From the NCBI GenBank assembly GCA_016840085.1, contig JAEOTA010000014.1, forward strand, positions 1 through 64,000: a DNA stretch of 64,000 nt. The letters run 5' to 3'. Every line of letters starts with the position of its first letter. Within the stretch, counting starts at the first letter, position 1. The position numbers and the translations under genes are program-made. Below the pieces are notes generated by a model. The model worked only from the letters and a program-made list of their open reading frames with translations. It did no database searches and was not told the DNA's origin. The stretch comes from Promethearchaeota archaeon. Its GTDB lineage: Archaea; Asgardarchaeota; Lokiarchaeia; Sigyniarchaeales; SOKP01. Positions 169 through 8,902 of the stretch are shown piece by piece.

Positions 169-1482
169 TTAAAGGGCTTCAACCACAGTTGAAATACCCA
201 CACCAGCACCGCCACACATTAATTGCACACCGTATTTCTTATTGTTATTCTTCAAGTAGTGTACCATTTCTGTGAAATAAACCACTCCACTAGCCCCTAT
301 CGGATGTCCTATTGCGATTGCCCCGCCTGTAGGGTTTACTCGGGGATCATCAAATTCATATCCGAAATCCTTTGCAAATGCCAAACATGGGCTTGCAAAA
401 GCTTCATTAGGTTCGATTACATCCATATCATCTATTGTAAGATCAGCACGTCTTAAAGCTTTTCTCATGGCGGGAATTGGTGCCAAAAGCATGATAACAG
501 GCTCACCACCAGCAACTGCAGTTGATAGTATTCGAGCCATTGGTTTTAATCCAAGTTGATCTGCTTTCTCTCGCGACATTAACAATACTGCTGCTGCTGC
601 ATCAACTATCTGTGAAGAATTTCCGGCAGTTACTTTCCCGTGTTTTTCAGCGGACCTGAATACAGGTTTCAAACTACTTATCATCTCCCATCCTTTTTCT
701 GGGTTATCCAGATACACCTCACGTACAGTCTGATCTGTTGTTACTGTGACTTCTTCTACTTTCTGTTTTCCTGTTTTTTCATCTTTAATAGGATTCATTT
801 CTTCATCTGTATATCTCTTTAAATAAGTAACTGGAACCACTCGTTTGAAGTACTTTTCCTCATTACGCATTGCTTTAGTAGCCTTTTGATGGCTCCACAT
901 GCCAAAATGATCAAGTTCTTCTCTTGTAAAACTATATTTATCGTTTATCAACTCTGATGAAACACCTTGGGGAACCATTTTTCTCACCGGATCTTCCCTC
1001 ATTTTTTGTGAATAAATCACAGGATACTTTGGAATACGTCCAAAAATTTGCATGTCTGAACCCATTGCATAATGTGTCATTGATTCGACTCCTCCAGCAA
1101 TGCAAATATCACCGTCACCAACTTTTATCGCGTTAGCCACTGTATTGACGGCTTGAAGTCCTGCATTACAATATCTATTAACAGTTGCTCCTGCTATTTC
1201 TTCAGGTAATCCTGCCATTAATAATGCAAACCTTGCAATATTGCCACCTTGTTCTCCTATTTGTGATAAACATCCCACATGGCAATCTTCAATTTCTTTT
1301 GGATCGAAATCTGGACATATTTTTTTTGTTCTTTCAACAATCTGCTGTAACACTGTTATTAATAAGTCTTGCGCTGAGCATTCTCTAAAAGCACCTCCAA
1401 GTTTTTTCATTTGCGCTCTACTTGATTTCCCTACGGGTGTTCTAATAGCATCAATAACTACACATTCTCTTAATTCTTTCAT
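169..1482 (-). CDS. Thiolase (acetyl-CoA C-acyltransferase)
   Basis: VNRYCNAG catalytic Cys, NEAFA, GHPIGASG and CGGAG thiolase motifs. Confidence 0.95.
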   Translation of the reverse strand: MKELRECVVIDAIRTPVGKSSRAQMKKLGGAFRECSAQDLLITVLQQIVERTKKICPDFDPKEIEDCHVGCLSQIGEQGGNIARFALLMAGLPEEIAGATVNRYCNAGLQAVNTVANAIKVGDGDICIAGGVESMTHYAMGSDMQIFGRIPKYPVIYSQKMREDPVRKMVPQGVSSELINDKYSFTREELDHFGMWSHQKATKAMRNEEKYFKRVVPVTYLKRYTDEEMNPIKDEKTGKQKVEEVTVTTDQTVREVYLDNPEKGWEMISSLKPVFRSAEKHGKVTAGNSSQIVDAAAAVLLMSREKADQLGLKPMARILSTAVAGGEPVIMLLAPIPAMRKALRRADLTIDDMDVIEPNEAFASPCLAFAKDFGYEFDDPRVNPTGGAIAIGHPIGASGVVYFTEMVHYLKNNNKKYGVQLMCGGAGVGISTVVEAL

Positions 1483-1488
1483 TTTTCA

Positions 1489-2673
1489 TCACTCTATTAT
1501 AATATTTTCTTCTTTTACTACTTTATTTGGTAGATTTAAAATTATTTCTTTTGCCTCAATCATAATACCTTGAATTAGGTCATGAACTGTTGGTATCGAG
1601 TGAATTCTTCCAGTAACAACTCCCGCGTTCATAAGACTTTCATTTTCATCTTCATCTACTAGTTTTCTAAAACCTCGTTCTTCTAATTTACGAATTTCAT
1701 CTGTTGAAGGACAATGTTTCCCACGATAAAGATCTGAAGCACCCTTAATAGTTTCATCCACAACCTTAAGAGAAGCAGGATTCATTAGAAATCTCATGGG
1801 GCCAAATATTCCCCTTCCAACAATTGTATCAAATTCAGTAGCCTTTACCAATTGTTCTTTCCACATTTGTTCAAAATCACCTTCTTGAGTTGCTATGAAT
1901 CGGGTACCCATTTGAATTCCAATAGCTCCTAAAGCGAGAGCAGCAGCTAATGATGCACCATCAGCAAAGCCTCCAGCACCTACTACAGGTTTATTAACCG
2001 TCCTAACTACTTCAGGAAGAAGAACCATGGATGATGTGTCTCTCCAAGCACAATGCGCTCCCCCTTCCCTTCCTGAAGCAATAACTATATCTACACCAGA
2101 TCTTTCAGCCCTTTTTGCCCCCCTCACATTTGGACAAACATGACACCATATTAATGTAGGCAATTCTTTCTTGATTTCAAGAAACGACCGTTTTGAACCC
2201 TTTTCCTTCGCATCTACAGCCCAAGGAAGCGGATCTCCAGCTGATGTGACAACAACCCTTAATTGTTTCTTTACTTCTGGTGTTTCTTCAAAAATCTCGA
2301 TAACAGCTTTCATGAATTGCCTTGAAACCATAAAAAATTCTTTAGCAACTGGTATATTGACACCAAATACAGCTTCTGGATAATCCTTGAGTTTCTCATA
2401 AACATACCTTATTGTTTGTTTGAGGACATTTTTGGGACTGCCACCAACTCCGAACTCAAACTTTCGATCTTCCTCAGGTATGAAATTCACATCCAGTCCT
2501 GCCATACCTATTGTTGAGATTAAACCCAATCCACCCTCTTTAGCCACAGCTATGCATAATTTAGTTGTGGCGTAAGGACCCACTCCATAACCTTAAGTAA
2601 ATCTTAAGATTTTTCCGGCTTGAATAATTGGGTATTTGGTCCCGATAATTTCTTGGAATTTAGTTTGTATCAT
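1489..2673 (-). CDS. Nitronate monooxygenase / FabK-like flavoenzyme, interrupted by a 30-nt insertion near the 5' end
   Basis: EGGAH, GAGGFADG and GIQMGTRF motifs. The true N-terminus MIQTKFQEIIGTKYPIIQAG starts at ATG 2673, in frame with the ORF-track CDS but separated by an in-frame TAA at 2593-2595. Confidence 0.85.
2583..2612 (-). other. Candidate 30-nt BHB-like intron or mini hairpin insertion
   Basis: Removal gives GGA A|TG GGT (QAG-M-GP). Internal stem AATCTTAAG/CTTAAGGTT, with 3-nt bulges AA|A and AG|T flanking a CCGG/ATGG helix. Confidence 0.55.
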
Positions 2674-2757
2674 TTCAATTCGATTATTAATTTTTTTAAT
2701 TATCAATCTAAAATGTATTTTATATATTAAATTATATCGTTTCTAAATCAAGCTTCT

Positions 2758-3876
2758 TTATTTATTAAATCTGACTATATTGTTGGATTTATTTTGTATG
2801 ACTTTAACTCCCATTTCAGTAATTCTTTGCGAAAGTTCAGATATTTTCCACTTTTCATAACCTTTTACATATGTGGAGAAAGAATCTTGTAAAGGATCTT
2901 TCCATTTTGAGGGAATTTTCTTCGCACCAAGTTGAACACCCAATATTGTTCCAATATTGCCGCAATTACAATCTGTATCATATCCCATCATAGCAGCAAC
3001 ACAAATGGACTTTCCAAAAGGATCTTGCTTATCTTGGGCACCATATAAAAGAGATAATATAATTATTCCAATATTTGGTAATACATGTATTCCTCCTAGA
3101 CGAGTATTTAATAATATTCTTCTTTCTATTGGGAAAACTAAAGAAGAAATAAGCACTTTTTCTACCATCTCATCTATCCAAAATTCTCTTATTAAAATCT
3201 TCCTGGCAGCTCTAAAATCGTTTGGATTTTGTTCATATATTTTTATTCCTTTTTTAACCATCTGGGTATATAAACTTTCTTTTTCAGAAGGGAGATATTG
3301 AAGAGCACTATCAATATTATATCTAATATCCGATTCAAAGAACGCTTGCGATATTAAAACTGCGATGAAAACTTCTCCTTCAATACCTATTCTATCATGA
3401 GAGATTGAACCATCAATTTCAGCATAACTTTTAGCAAGATCTGAACAACCCGGGGTTATTAATTCCCATATATCTGCTCTCATCTGAGCACCTATGAAAT
3501 CATAATAAAAATTGTTTAAAATCCCTGATTTTGGAGGCATAATGCCTGCTTTAAGATTGTTTAGAGCAATTTTTTCAGCAGTAAAAACGTAATCCTCTCT
3601 ATTAAGGAGACTAACCCATTCTTGAGCAATTTGTTCTGCTGTTATTTCGATACCATATTTTTCTAAAGCAATTAATGCAATGATCTCATACATTTCATCA
3701 TCATTGACATGATTTAGATCTATTGGCTCGGGATAAACTGAAATATCACCATACTTCTCCTTAATATTTTCATAAGATCTTAATTCTACTGGAATTCCAA
3801 CAAAATCTCCCGCAACTCTCCCTATCCATGCTCCTAAAACTTTATTATAATATTCTTTATAACTTATTTCCATCAT
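2758..3876 (-). CDS. ADP-ribosylglycohydrolase family protein
   Basis: GDFVG, NDDEM, GAQMRAD and DTDCN motifs. Confidence 0.9.
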   Translation of the reverse strand: MMEISYKEYYNKVLGAWIGRVAGDFVGIPVELRSYENIKEKYGDISVYPEPIDLNHVNDDEMYEIIALIALEKYGIEITAEQIAQEWVSLLNREDYVFTAEKIALNNLKAGIMPPKSGILNNFYYDFIGAQMRADIWELITPGCSDLAKSYAEIDGSISHDRIGIEGEVFIAVLISQAFFESDIRYNIDSALQYLPSEKESLYTQMVKKGIKIYEQNPNDFRAARKILIREFWIDEMVEKVLISSLVFPIERRILLNTRLGGIHVLPNIGIIILSLLYGAQDKQDPFGKSICVAAMMGYDTDCNCGNIGTILGVQLGAKKIPSKWKDPLQDSFSTYVKGYEKWKISELSQRITEMGVKVIQNKSNNIVRFNK

Positions 3877-3979
3877 GACATTCTCATTTTTTTCTTTCTA
3901 TTCTTTATTGATGGATGAGTAAAAACTTATAGAATTAGTATATTTACAGTTTCTTAAAAAAGAAATCATATATAGTTCT

Positions 3980-5194
3980 TCATTCATCCTTTTTTGATTT
4001 TGAATTTATGAATTCCTTATCTTTATTTATGTAGTAAACCCATGCATTTCGAGACATTAAACAATAATCTTCAGCAGCTAGATTTTTTAACAGTTCAATA
4101 CGTAATTTCCGCGCTTCAATGATTTCTGAATCTGCTTGAATTAAGACATTTAAGACTTCTAATGCTAATTGTGCTTGATCTTGCTTTAAGAGTTCTTTTG
4201 CTCTATTTAAAATTTTATCAGAGTCTCCTATGAGATTGAAAATTTCACCCATGACCTCCTTTTCTGGTCTTGGTAAGAGATGAGCAGGATTATCATCAAA
4301 ATAGCCATGATACCAGCGATATACATTAAACGCGAAAAATTCTAGTCGGGAATAAGAAGGTCTTAAATAAGGGCTATCTTTGAGGTGATCAGGAATTTTT
4401 ACTTTATGAATCATTTCAGTAATATGCATTCCCTCATTAATGAAGTCTACCACTTGATCATGCAAATTTCGAATAACTTCGATATTTGCGTCTAAAGCTT
4501 CGCGTGCCTCTTCCCCTTTAAACATTACAGCTGCTCCATTGCAAAAAATATATTCTGGGTTTATCGTTCGAACTTCCTCCAATGCTTTAGCCCAATCTAA
4601 CGCAAAACGGGTCGGTTTCCATGGGTTACCTATATTTGGAAAAGTTCTGCCAACGATAAGATCTCCTATAAACGCAACATTTAATTCAGGTACATAGACC
4701 CAACAAACATCATCTGTCTCTGCTCTAGCGGTATGAAGTTCAAAGGTTTTATCTCCAAGTTTTATCGTCATATTTCCTAAGAAGGTTTTTGTAGGATACA
4801 CAAATTCCATCGGTATTACGACTTCAGGAATATTAAATTGAACTGCTGAGATGTGAGCTCGATGAGATGCAAGCATTTTATACCTATCTAATCGATCTGG
4901 TAAATATTTACTTGCAATAACCTCAGTTCCTTCATCCATAAATTCACTAGCACCCATAACATGATCCATATGTCCATGAGTGTAAATTATATACTTGATT
5001 TTGTCTTTAATTTGTTCCCTAGCTTTTTTTGCCGCACCACGGCTTATTAATGTATCAATAACTACAAACCCCTCAGTTGTATCAATCCATGCACATCCCG
5101 CAATTGGTAATATGGCAATATGAACGTCTTTTAGAGGATTTTTAAATTGAACCTTCTGTCCTCTTAAAACTTGAATACCTGACATAATTTTCAA
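3980..5194 (-). CDS. Metallo-beta-lactamase fold alkyl/aryl-sulfatase-like hydrolase
   Basis: THGHMDH motif, ETDD, FPNIGNPWK, C-terminal helical dimerisation region. Confidence 0.85.
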   Translation of the reverse strand: MKIMSGIQVLRGQKVQFKNPLKDVHIAILPIAGCAWIDTTEGFVVIDTLISRGAAKKAREQIKDKIKYIIYTHGHMDHVMGASEFMDEGTEVIASKYLPDRLDRYKMLASHRAHISAVQFNIPEVVIPMEFVYPTKTFLGNMTIKLGDKTFELHTARAETDDVCWVYVPELNVAFIGDLIVGRTFPNIGNPWKPTRFALDWAKALEEVRTINPEYIFCNGAAVMFKGEEAREALDANIEVIRNLHDQVVDFINEGMHITEMIHKVKIPDHLKDSPYLRPSYSRLEFFAFNVYRWYHGYFDDNPAHLLPRPEKEVMGEIFNLIGDSDKILNRAKELLKQDQAQLALEVLNVLIQADSEIIEARKLRIELLKNLAAEDYCLMSRNAWVYYINKDKEFINSKSKKDE

Positions 5195-5240
5195 CTACGA
5201 ATTTTTGCTTAGTTAATTTTTTTAATAATTTGTTTATTTA

Positions 5241-6440
5241 TTATTTTCGTGAATTTATGAATTCTTTGTCTTTGTCAATAAAATAAACCCAAGCATTACG
5301 AGACATTAGGCAATAATCTTCAGCAACCAAATTTTTTAACAGTTCAATACGTAATTTCCGCGCTTCAATATTTTCTGGATCTGCTTGAATTGGGACATCT
5401 AAGATTTCTAATGCAAGTTGGGCTTGATCTTGATCTGAGAGTTCTTTTGCTCTCTTTAAAATTATTTCAGAGTCTCCTATAAGCTTGTAAAGTTCCCCCA
5501 TGACCTCATTTTCTGGTCTTGGTAAGAGGTGGGCAGGATTATCATCAAAATAGCCATGATACCAGCGATATACGTTAAACACAAAAAATTCTGGTCTAGA
5601 ATATAATGGTCTTAAATAAGGGTTATTCGCAAGGTGATCTGGTAGTTTGATTTCATGAATCATTTCAGTAATATGTGTTCCTTTATTGATGTGTTCAACA
5701 ACCTGGTCATGAAGTGAATATATTGCTTCTATGTTATAATCTAAAATTTTGAGTGCTTTCTCTCCTTTATAATAATAACCCGCACCATTACAAAATACAT
5801 GCTCAGGATTGAGAGCCCTTACATCTTTTAAAGCTTTTGCCCAATCTAAAGCAAATCGAGTAGGCTTCCATGGATTACCAATATTTGGTAAACCCGCAAT
5901 GATAAGATCTCCTATAAACGCAGCCTTAAGTTCAGGAACATACACCCACACCGCATCATCGGTTTCTGCTCTTACACTATGAAGTTCAAAGGTTTTATCT
6001 CCAAGTTTAAGTGTCATATCTCCTAAAAAAGTTTTAGTGGGATACACAAATTCTGGGGTTCTAACAATTTCCGGAACATTAAATTGCACTGCTGTAATAT
6101 GTGCGCGATGAGGAGCAAGCATTTTATATTTATCTAACCGATCTGGTAAATATTTACTTGCTATAATTTCTGGATTATCTTTTAAGTATGCTGCTGCCCC
6201 TCCAACATGATCGCCGTGTCCGTGAGTATAAATAATATATTTAATCGTCCCTTTAATTCTTTTGAAGATTTCTTTTGCTACAGAAACTCTTGCTATTGTA
6301 TCTATAAGTACAACTCCATCAGTAGTTTCTACCCACGCACATCCTGCTATTGGTAACTTAGCGGTATAAACATCCTTCATAGGATTTGTAAAGCCGGCAT
6401 TAGGGGCTCCCAAAATTCGAGTACCTTTTATTTCATTCAT
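5241..6440 (-). CDS. Metallo-beta-lactamase fold alkyl/aryl-sulfatase-like hydrolase (tandem paralog)
   Basis: THGHGDH motif; highly similar to 3980-5194. Confidence 0.85.
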   Translation of the reverse strand: MNEIKGTRILGAPNAGFTNPMKDVYTAKLPIAGCAWVETTDGVVLIDTIARVSVAKEIFKRIKGTIKYIIYTHGHGDHVGGAAAYLKDNPEIIASKYLPDRLDKYKMLAPHRAHITAVQFNVPEIVRTPEFVYPTKTFLGDMTLKLGDKTFELHSVRAETDDAVWVYVPELKAAFIGDLIIAGLPNIGNPWKPTRFALDWAKALKDVRALNPEHVFCNGAGYYYKGEKALKILDYNIEAIYSLHDQVVEHINKGTHITEMIHEIKLPDHLANNPYLRPLYSRPEFFVFNVYRWYHGYFDDNPAHLLPRPENEVMGELYKLIGDSEIILKRAKELSDQDQAQLALEILDVPIQADPENIEARKLRIELLKNLVAEDYCLMSRNAWVYFIDKDKEFINSRK

Positions 6441-6497
6441 CTTTGATTCTCCTATTTAATTTTATAAATTGGAATTTTTAGTAATTAATATTAATTT

Positions 6498-7547
6498 CTA
6501 ATTGTTGAGATTTTTATTGATTTCTTCCCACACAGTTTCGACAGGTAAAGGTTGATAGGGTTTCATCTCAAATTGTTTCTTACTAAGCTCATAGATTACT
6601 CTATTATATGGAATTTCAATGTTTAACGAATCTGCTAATTTCACAAGATAACCTGTTAATGATTCAAGCTCAGATTGATTTTTCTGACGATGTATCATAT
6701 CTTGAGCCATGCTATTTAACCATGAATACTTAAGGTTTCGCCTAAAATTGTTTATTGCTGTCGCTTTATCAAGATTTCTACCCAATTCCATAACTTTCCA
6801 AGAAGGTAATCCTTTTAGTTCATATTCCTTATATCCCGCAGCTTTTATAACATCTACTCCTTCGAGATAGACATTCATAAAAATATTCCAAAGCAGGAAA
6901 ATTGAGTCATCGTCTCTAAGATCAGGACTAATTAAAGTGAAAGTTGAATTCGAAAGGTTTATAATCAATTTTGAATGAGCTGCATCTTGAAATTCTTTTG
7001 TCATTCTTGTTGGGATTCCAATATTAAGAATTTCAACAATTTTTTCAACAATTCCTAGATTCTTATTATTGGGGGTTCCAAGAGTTAAGTGTCCTTTACC
7101 TCTGGTTCCAAAGATTCCAGGTTTATCTCGCCAGCCTGACTGTACAACTACACAATAAACAATTTTCGTAAAATATTTTGGTAAGACTTTTTGATTCTCA
7201 AAACCATTTTGTAATCCTACGATAATTGGTTTATCTTCTAATTTCTTGGAAATATCCTTGGCAACTTCCTCTAAATCATAATTTTTAACAGTGATTACTA
7301 CAACATCAATATTAGTAAGCTCATTTAAGTCTTCGATGATTTTTACTGATATAGGTGCTGGATTATTATTTTCCCTTTCGTAAAGAATTAAACCGTTAGT
7401 TTTAAGCGCTATTGCATTTTCACCCCGAGCTAATAAGTATACATTTTCATTTTTTTGTGATAACCACCCTCCAAGAGTGGCACCTATTCCACCAATCCCA
7501 TAGAATACAATAGTTAAATCATCATTAATTTTCTCCACTAAATTCAA
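6498..7547 (-). CDS. panE: 2-dehydropantoate 2-reductase family protein
   Basis: GIGGIG Rossmann motif, TVKNYD, LQNG, KLIIN and SMAQD motifs. Confidence 0.8.
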   Translation of the reverse strand: MNLVEKINDDLTIVFYGIGGIGATLGGWLSQKNENVYLLARGENAIALKTNGLILYERENNNPAPISVKIIEDLNELTNIDVVVITVKNYDLEEVAKDISKKLEDKPIIVGLQNGFENQKVLPKYFTKIVYCVVVQSGWRDKPGIFGTRGKGHLTLGTPNNKNLGIVEKIVEILNIGIPTRMTKEFQDAAHSKLIINLSNSTFTLISPDLRDDDSIFLLWNIFMNVYLEGVDVIKAAGYKEYELKGLPSWKVMELGRNLDKATAINNFRRNLKYSWLNSMAQDMIHRQKNQSELESLTGYLVKLADSLNIEIPYNRVIYELSKKQFEMKPYQPLPVETVWEEINKNLNN

Positions 7548-7735
7548 CTCGTTTAGGAAATTATATTCTTATCTCGTAATTGCTTAAAATTAGCTCGAAA
7601 ACTATAATAATATTTCTTAATCAAAACATAAAAAAATTTTCGATTTATAAAATGAGCAAATTAATATTTTTTTTCAATTTTTCTAATATTAATTTAAATT
7701 AAAATAATTAATTAGTAAGAGAGTCTAAAAATAAT

Positions 7736-8902
7736 ATGGTAAATGTTAAAAATATTGTAGTAATCGGTGTTGGCTTAATGGGAAATGGAATTGCCCAAAT
7801 CTCATTAATGGCAGGATACAATACAACTCTTGTCGATATTTATCAAGGAATCATTGATAAAGCTGTAGCTAGCATTGAAGGTGGATTGAATAAACTTGAA
7901 TCCAAAGGAGTATTAAATGCAGCAGAAAATATGGCACGAATGAAAACAAGTTTAGATTTATCTTCTGCTGTAAAAGATGCTGATTTGATTATAGAAGCTG
8001 TAGTAGAAGATATGGATGTGAAGAAAAAGATCTTTAAAACTTGTGATGAAAATGCTCCACCTCATGCTGTAATCGCTTCAAACACATCAACGATGTCTAT
8101 AACTGAAATGGCAACTGCTACAAATAGACCAGATAAATGTATTGGTATGCATTTTTTCAATCCAGCACCTTTAATGAGGTTAATAGAAGTTATTGCCGGT
8201 GAAAAATCTTCTGATGAATCAATGGAAATTGGTGTGAAAGTTAGTGAAAGTTTACCGTGCCTTAGAGGAGATAGATACATTGCGAAAGTCTTGAAAGATC
8301 GTCCAGGATTTATAATAAACAGGCTAAATGCTCCAGGATCAATTTATTCTAGTTATCTCCTTGATCAATGCCTCGAGAAAGGAATTCCCTTTGAATCATT
8401 AGACGCGGATTATGGGAGTGGTGGACCTATGTCCCCCCTAGTTTTATCTGATTACACTGGCATTGATACAGGATATCATGTGCGAAATTATTATGCTGAA
8501 ACATTACATGAAGATTTCAGACCAGGAAAAGTTATCACAAAAATGTTTAAAGAAGGAAAATGGGGTAGAAAAACTGGACAAGGATTCTATGATTGGTCCA
8601 AAGGAAGGCCACAACCAGATTTCTCTAAAATCCAAAAAGCTGGATTGGCAGACCTTAGAATTGGTCTTGCTATACGTCTAAATGAAGGATGTAGGATATT
8701 AGAAGAAGGTATTGCTTCCGGTTGGAAAGTTATTGATGATGCGAATATGGCTGGTATGAACTTCCCAGGACCCTTTGAATATGGAATTAAAAATTGGCAA
8801 GGACTCGTTAAAGTATTAGAAGAATTCGCTGAAAAAATTGGTAGTGAATATCTTAAACCATGTGAATTGTTTAAGAGCGGGAAATTTGTAGATATGAAAT
8901 AA
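7736..8902 (+). CDS. 3-hydroxyacyl-CoA dehydrogenase
   Basis: GVGLMG, EAVVE, SNTSTMS, GMHFFNP and GRKTGQGFY motifs. Confidence 0.95.
   Translation: MVNVKNIVVIGVGLMGNGIAQISLMAGYNTTLVDIYQGIIDKAVASIEGGLNKLESKGVLNAAENMARMKTSLDLSSAVKDADLIIEAVVEDMDVKKKIFKTCDENAPPHAVIASNTSTMSITEMATATNRPDKCIGMHFFNPAPLMRLIEVIAGEKSSDESMEIGVKVSESLPCLRGDRYIAKVLKDRPGFIINRLNAPGSIYSSYLLDQCLEKGIPFESLDADYGSGGPMSPLVLSDYTGIDTGYHVRNYYAETLHEDFRPGKVITKMFKEGKWGRKTGQGFYDWSKGRPQPDFSKIQKAGLADLRIGLAIRLNEGCRILEEGIASGWKVIDDANMAGMNFPGPFEYGIKNWQGLVKVLEEFAEKIGSEYLKPCELFKSGKFVDMK

What the first reader, a model, noticed from the sequence alone, without database searches (positions are those of the whole stretch)
2583..2612. Candidate 30-nt bulge-helix-bulge micro-intron inside a protein-coding gene
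Seen: the minus strand reads ...CAA GCC GGA AAA ATC TTA AGA TTT ACT TAA GGT TAT GGA GTG GGT CCT. The family N-terminus (PIIQAG) is split from the rest by 30 nt containing a stop. The insert folds as CCGG-[AA|A]-AAUCUUAAG-loop-CUUAAGGUU-AUGG-[AG|U]. Known: archaeal splicing endonuclease EndA cuts BHB motifs after the 2nd nt of each 3-nt bulge, and mRNA introns are known mainly from crenarchaeal cbf5. Cutting by that rule gives GGA A|UG GGU, recreating the Met of the conserved QAGMG motif, a codon absent from the genomic DNA. Inference: an EndA-spliced mRNA intron in an Asgard archaeon. Caveats: the central helix is 3/4 paired, the exon-side helix is poor, and a GGA-flanked mini-insertion (giving QAGVG) is an alternative.
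Basis: partly seen in the sequence, partly recalled or inferred. Interest (0 to 1): 0.85.

Follow-up and report, generated by a model that had tools for sequence, protein, structure and literature searches.

The report
tRNA-type mini-intron in Asgard flavoenzyme gene
A 30-base hairpin interrupts a flavin-enzyme gene of an Asgard archaeon exactly where the archaeal tRNA-splicing enzyme would cut, and relatives carry two other such inserts at the same spot, so this messenger RNA is very probably spliced, which papers confirm in archaea for only one protein gene; no RNA data exist yet.

Summary
Observation confirmed. Window 2612-2583 (-) is a single-copy 30-nt stop-containing insert in a FabK/nitronate-monooxygenase-family gene of a probable Lokiarchaeia genome. 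Removing exactly these bases restores ATG of QAGMGPY (Met in 114/114 full-length homologues); these are also the cut points of the bulge-helix-bulge rule (central helix 3/4, intron stem 9/9; 1e-5 of random genomic 30-mers). Relatives carry two other 30-nt stop-containing inserts here: one at the same phase, one a base upstream with a perfect helix in genes under purifying selection (dN/dS about 0.05 at dS about 0.9). All three lineages use the rare Ala codon GCC that pairs with the insert (1/17 intronless genes do). A motif-free comparison with a sister genome found like inserts in EF-2, ribosomal uS3 and tRNAs of this genome. Best reading: an EndA/RtcB-spliced mRNA intron with a relaxed motif (0.85). 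Caveats: no RNA run; the motif is weak (no exon helix); the catalytic EndA subunit is missing from this assembly (a gap). The scan noted this phenomenon before on other Asgard DNA (231 AI notes); I found no paper on it.

The parts
2613..2673 (-). Exon 1 (61 nt): start ATG, 20 codons and the A of Met21; encodes helix 5-10 and barrel strand beta-1 (residues 16-18)
   Evidence: secondary structure of the orthologue model
2583..2612 (-). 30-nt BHB-type intron, phase 1, splitting ATG as A|TG
   Evidence: 30 bases absent from a relative's contig
2615..2618 (-). Central helix, exon strand CCGG; includes the silent third base of Ala19 (GCC, position 2617)
2612..2614 (-). 5' bulge AA^A; predicted cut between 2613 and 2612
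   Evidence: BHB rule applied
2589..2611 (-). Intron stem-loop: 9 bp (2611-2603 with 2597-2589), 5-nt loop; contains the in-frame TAA at 2595-2593
2585..2588 (-). Central helix, intron strand AUGG (3 of 4 pairs, G.A next to the 5' bulge)
2582..2584 (-). 3' bulge or internal loop AG^U; predicted cut between 2583 and 2582
1489..2582 (-). Exon 2 of the FabK/NMO-family FMN oxidoreductase (PF03060); gene callers annotate it alone from GTG 2583 as 364 aa
169..1482 (-). Thiolase gene 6 nt downstream, probably co-transcribed; the same order is seen in relatives with and without the intron

Best explanation
The 30 nt are a tRNA-type (BHB, relaxed HBh'/BHL-like form) intron in a pre-mRNA. The transcript folds a 9-bp intron hairpin and a 3/4 central helix with exon 1. 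The two-subunit splicing endonuclease cuts after the second base of each bulge, RtcB joins the exons, and this creates the AUG of Met21 and a 384-aa FabK-like FMN enzyme. Shown here: the insert, its boundaries, the fold geometry, the intact and constrained reading frame, recurrence of such inserts at this site and in essential genes, RtcB and one EndA subunit. Inferred: transcription, cleavage, ligation, circularisation of the intron, and splicing efficiency. The intron looks like a lineage-specific gain at a site that was hit more than once; most likely it is tolerated rather than regulatory.
For: (1) The BHB cut equals the unique junction that restores the orthologue sequence. Met21 is invariant (114/114 full-length hits). 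(2) Chance 5e-4 to 1e-5. (3) L182 (distant orthologue) has a different 30-nt stop-containing insert that fits the same phase with CCGG/ACGG and the same G.A. L172-174, L178-181, L187-189 and L191 have a third insert that fits one base upstream with a 4/4 helix and an 8-9 bp stem. Those genes differ by dS up to about 0.9 with dN/dS 0.03-0.07 for the distant pairs, so they stayed functional with a stop in frame. (4) Ala19 is GCC in all three insert lineages, in 1 of 17 intronless genes, and in 8.7% of Ala codons genome-wide. (5) Motif-free census over about 1.6 Mb of aligned coding DNA against G002: 8 of 13 ORF-breaking inserts have BHB scores at p<0.003, none of 21 in-frame stop-free inserts is below 0.15. 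Hosts include EF-2 (two inserts) and uS3 (two, one frameshifting), each the only copy found in the assembly; tRNA introns of 25-30 nt have the same geometry. (6) One uS3 insert also splits A|TG and has only 2/4 central pairs, so imperfect helices occur in an essential gene. (7) No excess of protein change on this gene: 11 unique amino acids against 19 unique silent codons, within the range of intronless controls. (8) RtcB is present; two EndA paralogues are typical of the genus.
Against: No transcript evidence. The central helix has predicted probability about 0.27 and competes with an exon-2 hairpin; there is no canonical exon helix. This exact insert was found in no other genome (0 of 134 family genomes), so its age is unknown and a recent inactivation would leave no dN/dS trace. 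The catalytic EndA subunit was not found in G000, although its conserved neighbours, including a probable V-ATPase A gene, are missing too, which points to an assembly gap. The gene has about ten distant paralogues in the genome, so it is not evidently essential.
Confidence: 0.85

Rival explanations
1. A decayed or badly spliced intron: the insert arose as a BHB intron, but its central helix has eroded, so little or no spliced mRNA is made and the gene is a young pseudogene.
For: Weak central helix and no exon helix; the insert is confined to one species; a few unique changes at otherwise constant residues (I288M, P311H, T365I, E368K); many paralogues.
Against: The stem is perfect (9/9). The same G.A occurs in the independent L182 insert, and a worse helix occurs in uS3. 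The frame is intact, with no excess of amino-acid change.
Confidence: 0.08
2. No splicing: ribosomes stop at the TAA and re-start at GTG 2583 (ATG in the L172 type), making a 364-aa protein, with or without the 26-aa leader peptide as a partner.
For: A start codon directly follows all three inserts, and gene callers annotate this form.
Against: Exon 1 holds strand beta-1 of the eight-stranded barrel and invariant P15, Q18, A19, G20. Re-initiation does not explain the hairpin geometry, the GCC preference, the fixed 30-nt length, or mid-gene and frameshifting inserts in EF-2 and uS3.
Confidence: 0.04
3. A miniature mobile or repair-derived insertion with a GGA target duplication, leaving QAGVG if excised at DNA level; or stop-codon read-through of a 10-residue loop insertion.
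For: GGA occurs at both ends in one register, and the insert is a palindrome-like hairpin with a length divisible by three.
Against: Single copy in the genome even at 6 mismatches. Val is never seen at this position. That register has 1/4 central pairs. The other two inserts have no GGA duplication and different stops (TAG, TAA) at different codons.
Confidence: 0.02
4. Assembly artefact.
For: Metagenome-assembled genome with 7.6% contamination; raw reads were not available.
Against: Identical in contigs of two runs at depth 29 and 16; other 30-nt inserts at the same place in assemblies from unrelated projects.
Confidence: 0.01

Closest known systems
cbf5 pre-mRNA intron of Crenarchaeota (Watanabe 2002; Yoshinari 2006; Yokobori 2009, PMC2738675)
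   Same: Short intron (16-39 nt among the sizes read) in a coding region, inserted between the first and second base of a conserved codon, with a mostly unconventional BHB, cut between the second and third bulge bases by a hetero-oligomeric EndA.
   Different: Other phylum and gene. cbf5 is one site in one gene with cDNA proof; here there are many lineage-specific sites per genome, three different inserts at two adjacent positions of one gene, and no RNA proof.
Non-canonical tRNA introns of Asgard archaea (bioRxiv 10.64898/2026.10.13.758758)
   Same: Similar size (median 22-23 nt there; 25-30 nt in this genome's tRNAs), repeated and often terminal-branch gains, BHB boundaries, mostly two EndA paralogues.
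   Different: That study covers tRNA genes only (no mention of mRNA or cbf5 in the text).
BHB intron in the 5' UTR of Haloferax HVO_1309 (Schwarz 2020, PMC7714728)
   Same: An mRNA substrate of EndA, shown by circular-RNA sequencing and in vitro cleavage.
   Different: 46 nt, outside the reading frame, so splicing does not create a codon.
FabK / PA1024-type FMN oxidoreductases (PF03060), the host protein
   Same: TIM-barrel fold, best matches FabK 2z6i and 5gvh, TM about 0.7; GGxH motif invariant.
   Different: 25-28% identity; below the NCBIfam FabK cut-off (161 against 453 bits); substrate untested.

Membership tests
Archaeal BHB (EndA-spliced) intron | Removal restores a conserved, uninterrupted product found in relatives | tested here: met
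   384-aa frame with QAGMGPY
Archaeal BHB (EndA-spliced) intron | Boundaries lie after the second base of each 3-nt bulge flanking a 4-bp helix | tested here: met
   Homology junction equals the BHB cut and is unique
Archaeal BHB (EndA-spliced) intron | 4-bp central helix | tested here: inconclusive
   3 of 4 pairs, G.A at the fourth; pairing probability about 0.27; similar or worse helices in uS3 and L182
Archaeal BHB (EndA-spliced) intron | Intron-side helix h' | tested here: met
   9/9 pairs, probability about 0.9
Canonical hBHBh' motif | Exon-side helix h directly closing the 3' bulge | tested here: not met
   0/6 in register; a shifted 5-bp helix gives an internal loop. So it is a relaxed motif, not a canonical one
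Archaeal BHB (EndA-spliced) intron | Host encodes a splicing endonuclease able to cut relaxed motifs, and a ligase | tested here: inconclusive
   RtcB and a subunit lacking the catalytic His are present; the catalytic subunit is in 51 of 53 other genus genomes but absent from this assembly with its neighbours; specificity unknown
Archaeal BHB (EndA-spliced) intron | Spliced RNA or excised circle observed; cleavage in vitro | not testable with these tools
   No RNA holder listed
MITE / miniature insertion sequence | Multiple copies, terminal inverted repeats, target-site duplication | tested here: not met
   One copy at up to 6 mismatches; the GGA duplication is not shared by the other inserts
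Known structured RNA family (Rfam) | Match to a covariance model | tested here: not met
   No match up to E 1 in 2300-2900
FabK enoyl-ACP reductase (host gene) | TIGR03151 score above cut-off; enoyl reductase activity | tested here: not met
   161.5 against 453.1 bits; activity not testable; filed only as PF03060 family

The most novel reading that the evidence does not exclude
Loki-type Asgard archaea keep gaining sequence-unrelated introns of about 30 nt in mRNAs. Particular exon contexts (here GCCGG before an ATG) are hit repeatedly and independently, and intron-bearing or intron-free alleles move between species by recombination of a flanking block of roughly 60 codons, with no homing endonuclease: a live, protein-spliced intron gain-and-spread system in the sister group of eukaryotes.
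Probability: 0.35. Interest if true: 0.92.

Novelty: new variant of a known kind. Interest (0 to 1): 0.76.

Why it matters
Papers I could read list one confirmed archaeal coding-region intron (cbf5) and one 5' UTR case; six literature searches found none for Asgard mRNAs. If spliced, this gene shows that the closest prokaryotic relatives of eukaryotes need RNA cutting and ligation to read ordinary metabolic genes as well as EF-2 and uS3, and that Asgard annotations contain many falsely truncated or pseudogene calls. This site is a useful test case: three natural inserts at two adjacent positions, ranging from a perfect to a weak motif, plus intronless sisters, allow direct measurement of EndA tolerance and a test of how such introns arise and spread.

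Tried and rejected
RNA evidence: no RNA holder listed; this is no evidence either way. Motif-first scan for introns shared by G000 and G002: 12 loci, as many as in shifted controls (13 and 13); nearly all are operon junctions, and one is a probable selenocysteine TGA, so the scan was discarded. Whole-region folding z-scores were uninformative. The pattern search found no same-site insert in 134 other family genomes or in the genome collection; two of five metagenome hits (L175, L176) were chance. Three N-truncated homologues (P0092, P0101, P0104) are intronless genes with TTG starts. The 5'-block tree had too little support to use. Homology between the three insert types is undecided: same 1+9+5+9+4+2 layout, but only about 11-15 of 30 bases match by hand count. 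A second EndA subunit was sought in G000 by profile, motif and tblastn without result. The FabK paper read did not give residue-level FMN contacts for the Gly-Met loop. The spliced protein itself could not be folded; an intronless orthologue (91% identical) stood in.

Full report
Observation. On the minus strand a reading frame starts at ATG 2673, runs 20 codons to PIIQAG, passes through 30 extra bases (2612-2583) with a TAA at 2595-2593, and continues as a 364-codon frame to 1489. The insert is single-copy in the 4.68-Mb genome. It is unchanged in contigs of two runs of one study (depth 29 and 16; one may be the source), and a roughly 90%-identical contig from another study lacks exactly 30 bases at 2583. 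No RNA run is listed.

Host gene. The product belongs to PF03060. A model of a 91%-identical intronless orthologue (pLDDT 88) is an eight-stranded barrel closest to FabK and PA1024, and its first strand (residues 16-18) lies in exon 1. Named homologues come mostly from Promethearchaeota/Lokiarchaeota bins and other Asgard bins, so the organism is probably a Loki-type Asgard archaeon (inferred). A thiolase gene follows after 6 nt.

Boundaries. All 12 orthologues first inspected read ATG at codon 21. Of 120 homologues, 114 have QAGMGPY and six are called from MGPY; residues 18-24 are invariant in a 78-sequence alignment. Only one 30-nt excision restores ATG, between A and TG, and it is the best DNA match to the orthologue. 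The same two points follow from the BHB rule: central helix CCGG/AUGG (three pairs and a G.A), bulges AA^A and AG^U, intron stem 9/9. Shuffled inserts reach this score in 5e-4 of trials; random genomic 30-mers give the observed pairing in 1e-5. The motif is relaxed: there is no exon helix in register, and the central helix has a predicted probability of about 0.27. The alternative register (GGA duplication, Val) pairs 1 of 4.

The same site in relatives. A pattern scan and look-ups of N-truncated proteins gave two further kinds of 30-nt, stop-containing insert. L182, in a distant subclade, fits the same phase with CCGG/ACGG and the same G.A, though its stem is partly decayed. A group of eleven loci (L172 type) fits one base upstream, with GCCG/CGGU 4/4 and an 8-9 bp stem. 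In these two types both registers restore ATG, so the fold alone assigns the phase. The distant L172-type pairs differ by dS 0.4-0.9 with dN/dS about 0.03-0.07 and keep a nearly identical insert: they are not pseudogenes. All three lineages have GCC at Ala19, whose silent C pairs with the insert; only 1 of 17 intronless genes does, and GCC is 8.7% of Ala codons in this genome (three lineages only, and their independence is not proven). G000's nearest relatives in the tree are intronless, and no other of 134 family genomes matches the insert pattern, so this insert is probably a recent gain.

Genome-wide context, found without using the motif. Aligning 2.8 Mb of a sister genome (G002) to G000 gave about 1.6 Mb of aligned coding DNA. 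Of 13 distinct internal ORF-breaking inserts, 12 are 29-37 nt and 8 have BHB scores at p<0.003; none of 21 in-frame, stop-free inserts is below 0.15. In G000 the hosts include EF-2 (two inserts, 4/4 helices), AMP phosphorylase and uS3 (a 31-nt frameshifting insert and a 30-nt one that also splits A|TG, with only 2/4 central pairs); EF-2 and uS3 are the only copies found. tRNA genes carry inserts of 25-30 nt with the same geometry. By predicted central-helix probability ours lies within the range of the uS3 inserts.

Selection on this copy. Against its nearest intronless relative dN/dS is 0.07. Unique changes are 11 amino acids and 19 silent codons, against 8/13, 9/34, 12/25 and 8/25 in intronless controls. 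This excludes an old pseudogene, not a very young one.

Machinery. RtcB is present. The genus typically has two EndA paralogues; 51 of 53 other genomes hold the catalytic one. G000's assembly has only the subunit that lacks the catalytic His and K-F-G motif; the conserved neighbours of the catalytic gene are absent as well, which indicates a gap. Relaxed motifs are substrates for some endonucleases (PMC12397907), but not all (alpha-beta)2 enzymes cut them well, so activity must be measured.

A lead on spread. Among L172-type genes silent divergence in codons 1-60 (0.14-0.23) is lower than in the rest (0.38; Fisher p 0.0002-0.03). Intronless L002 and L004 are sisters of intron-bearing genes (96% and 99% support) yet differ more in that block (L172-L002 0.37 against 0.12, p 1e-5). 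G000 against L192 shows the same (0.47 against 0.25, p 0.001), but so does the intronless pair L192-L190 (p 0.007). Intron presence or absence therefore seems to move with a recombined 5' block; the direction is unresolved, the pairs are not independent, and structural constraint may contribute.

Mechanism and verdict. Most likely the pre-mRNA is cut by the two-subunit endonuclease at both bulges and joined by RtcB, creating Met21 (0.85). Rivals: decayed intron and young pseudogene (0.08), re-initiation without splicing (0.04), mini-insertion or read-through (0.02), artefact (0.01). It works like the cbf5 intron and meets the testable features of an EndA-type intron, except the canonical exon helix. 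Published coding-region cases are limited to cbf5; a 2026 preprint treats Asgard tRNA introns only; my searches found no paper on Asgard mRNA introns. Earlier AI notes of this scan report the phenomenon on other Asgard DNA and elsewhere in this genome; I did not use them as support, and I found the EF-2 and uS3 cases independently. Class: new variant of a known kind. Interest 0.76.

Noticed in passing
G000:C85 about 142160-142280 (+); orthologue L063:132-923: Ribosomal protein uS3 carries two inserts (31 nt, central helix 4/4, frameshifting; 30 nt, 2/4, splitting A|TG).
   Followed up: partly
G000:C4 16392-14083 (-); orthologue L103:5620-7869: EF-2-family gene with two 30-nt BHB inserts. It is the only EF-2 found, it scores below the aEF-2 cut-off, and its G002 orthologue lacks an HRG motif, so it may be the Asgard paralogue, with the canonical copy unassembled.
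   Followed up: partly
L101, L052, L061, L033, L079, L065 (G002): G002-specific 29-37 nt ORF-breaking inserts in genes that look like UvrB, DnaG primase, uL11 and thioredoxin, and in two others (names from sequence motifs, not tested).
   Followed up: partly
L172-L174, L178-L181, L187-L189, L191; L002, L004: Silent-site pattern suggests the intron moves in or out with a recombined block of about 60 codons.
   Followed up: partly
G000:C44 about 45030 (+); L158 about 6230: HdrA-like gene with an in-frame TGA after DCSI, shared with G002: probably selenocysteine, not an intron.
   Followed up: no
G000:C79 3617-4223 (L031:1210-1818): Only the non-catalytic EndA subunit is assembled; the catalytic subunit locus, with a MEMO-like gene and a probable V-ATPase A gene, is missing despite 98.8% marker completeness.
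   Followed up: yes
G000:C30 about 4210-4340: tRNA gene with two 30-nt introns absent from G002, one in the T-loop; ARAGORN finds only 26 tRNAs in the genome, probably because of multiple introns.
   Followed up: partly
L009 (G021:C14): Intronless orthologue is broken after about 179 codons; cause not examined.
   Followed up: no
window 169-8902: Acyl-CoA cluster: thiolase, the FabK-like gene, an ADP-ribosylglycohydrolase, two tandem metallo-beta-lactamase/alkyl-sulfatase-like paralogues, a PanE-like reductase and a 3-hydroxyacyl-CoA dehydrogenase (the last three by inspection).
   Followed up: no
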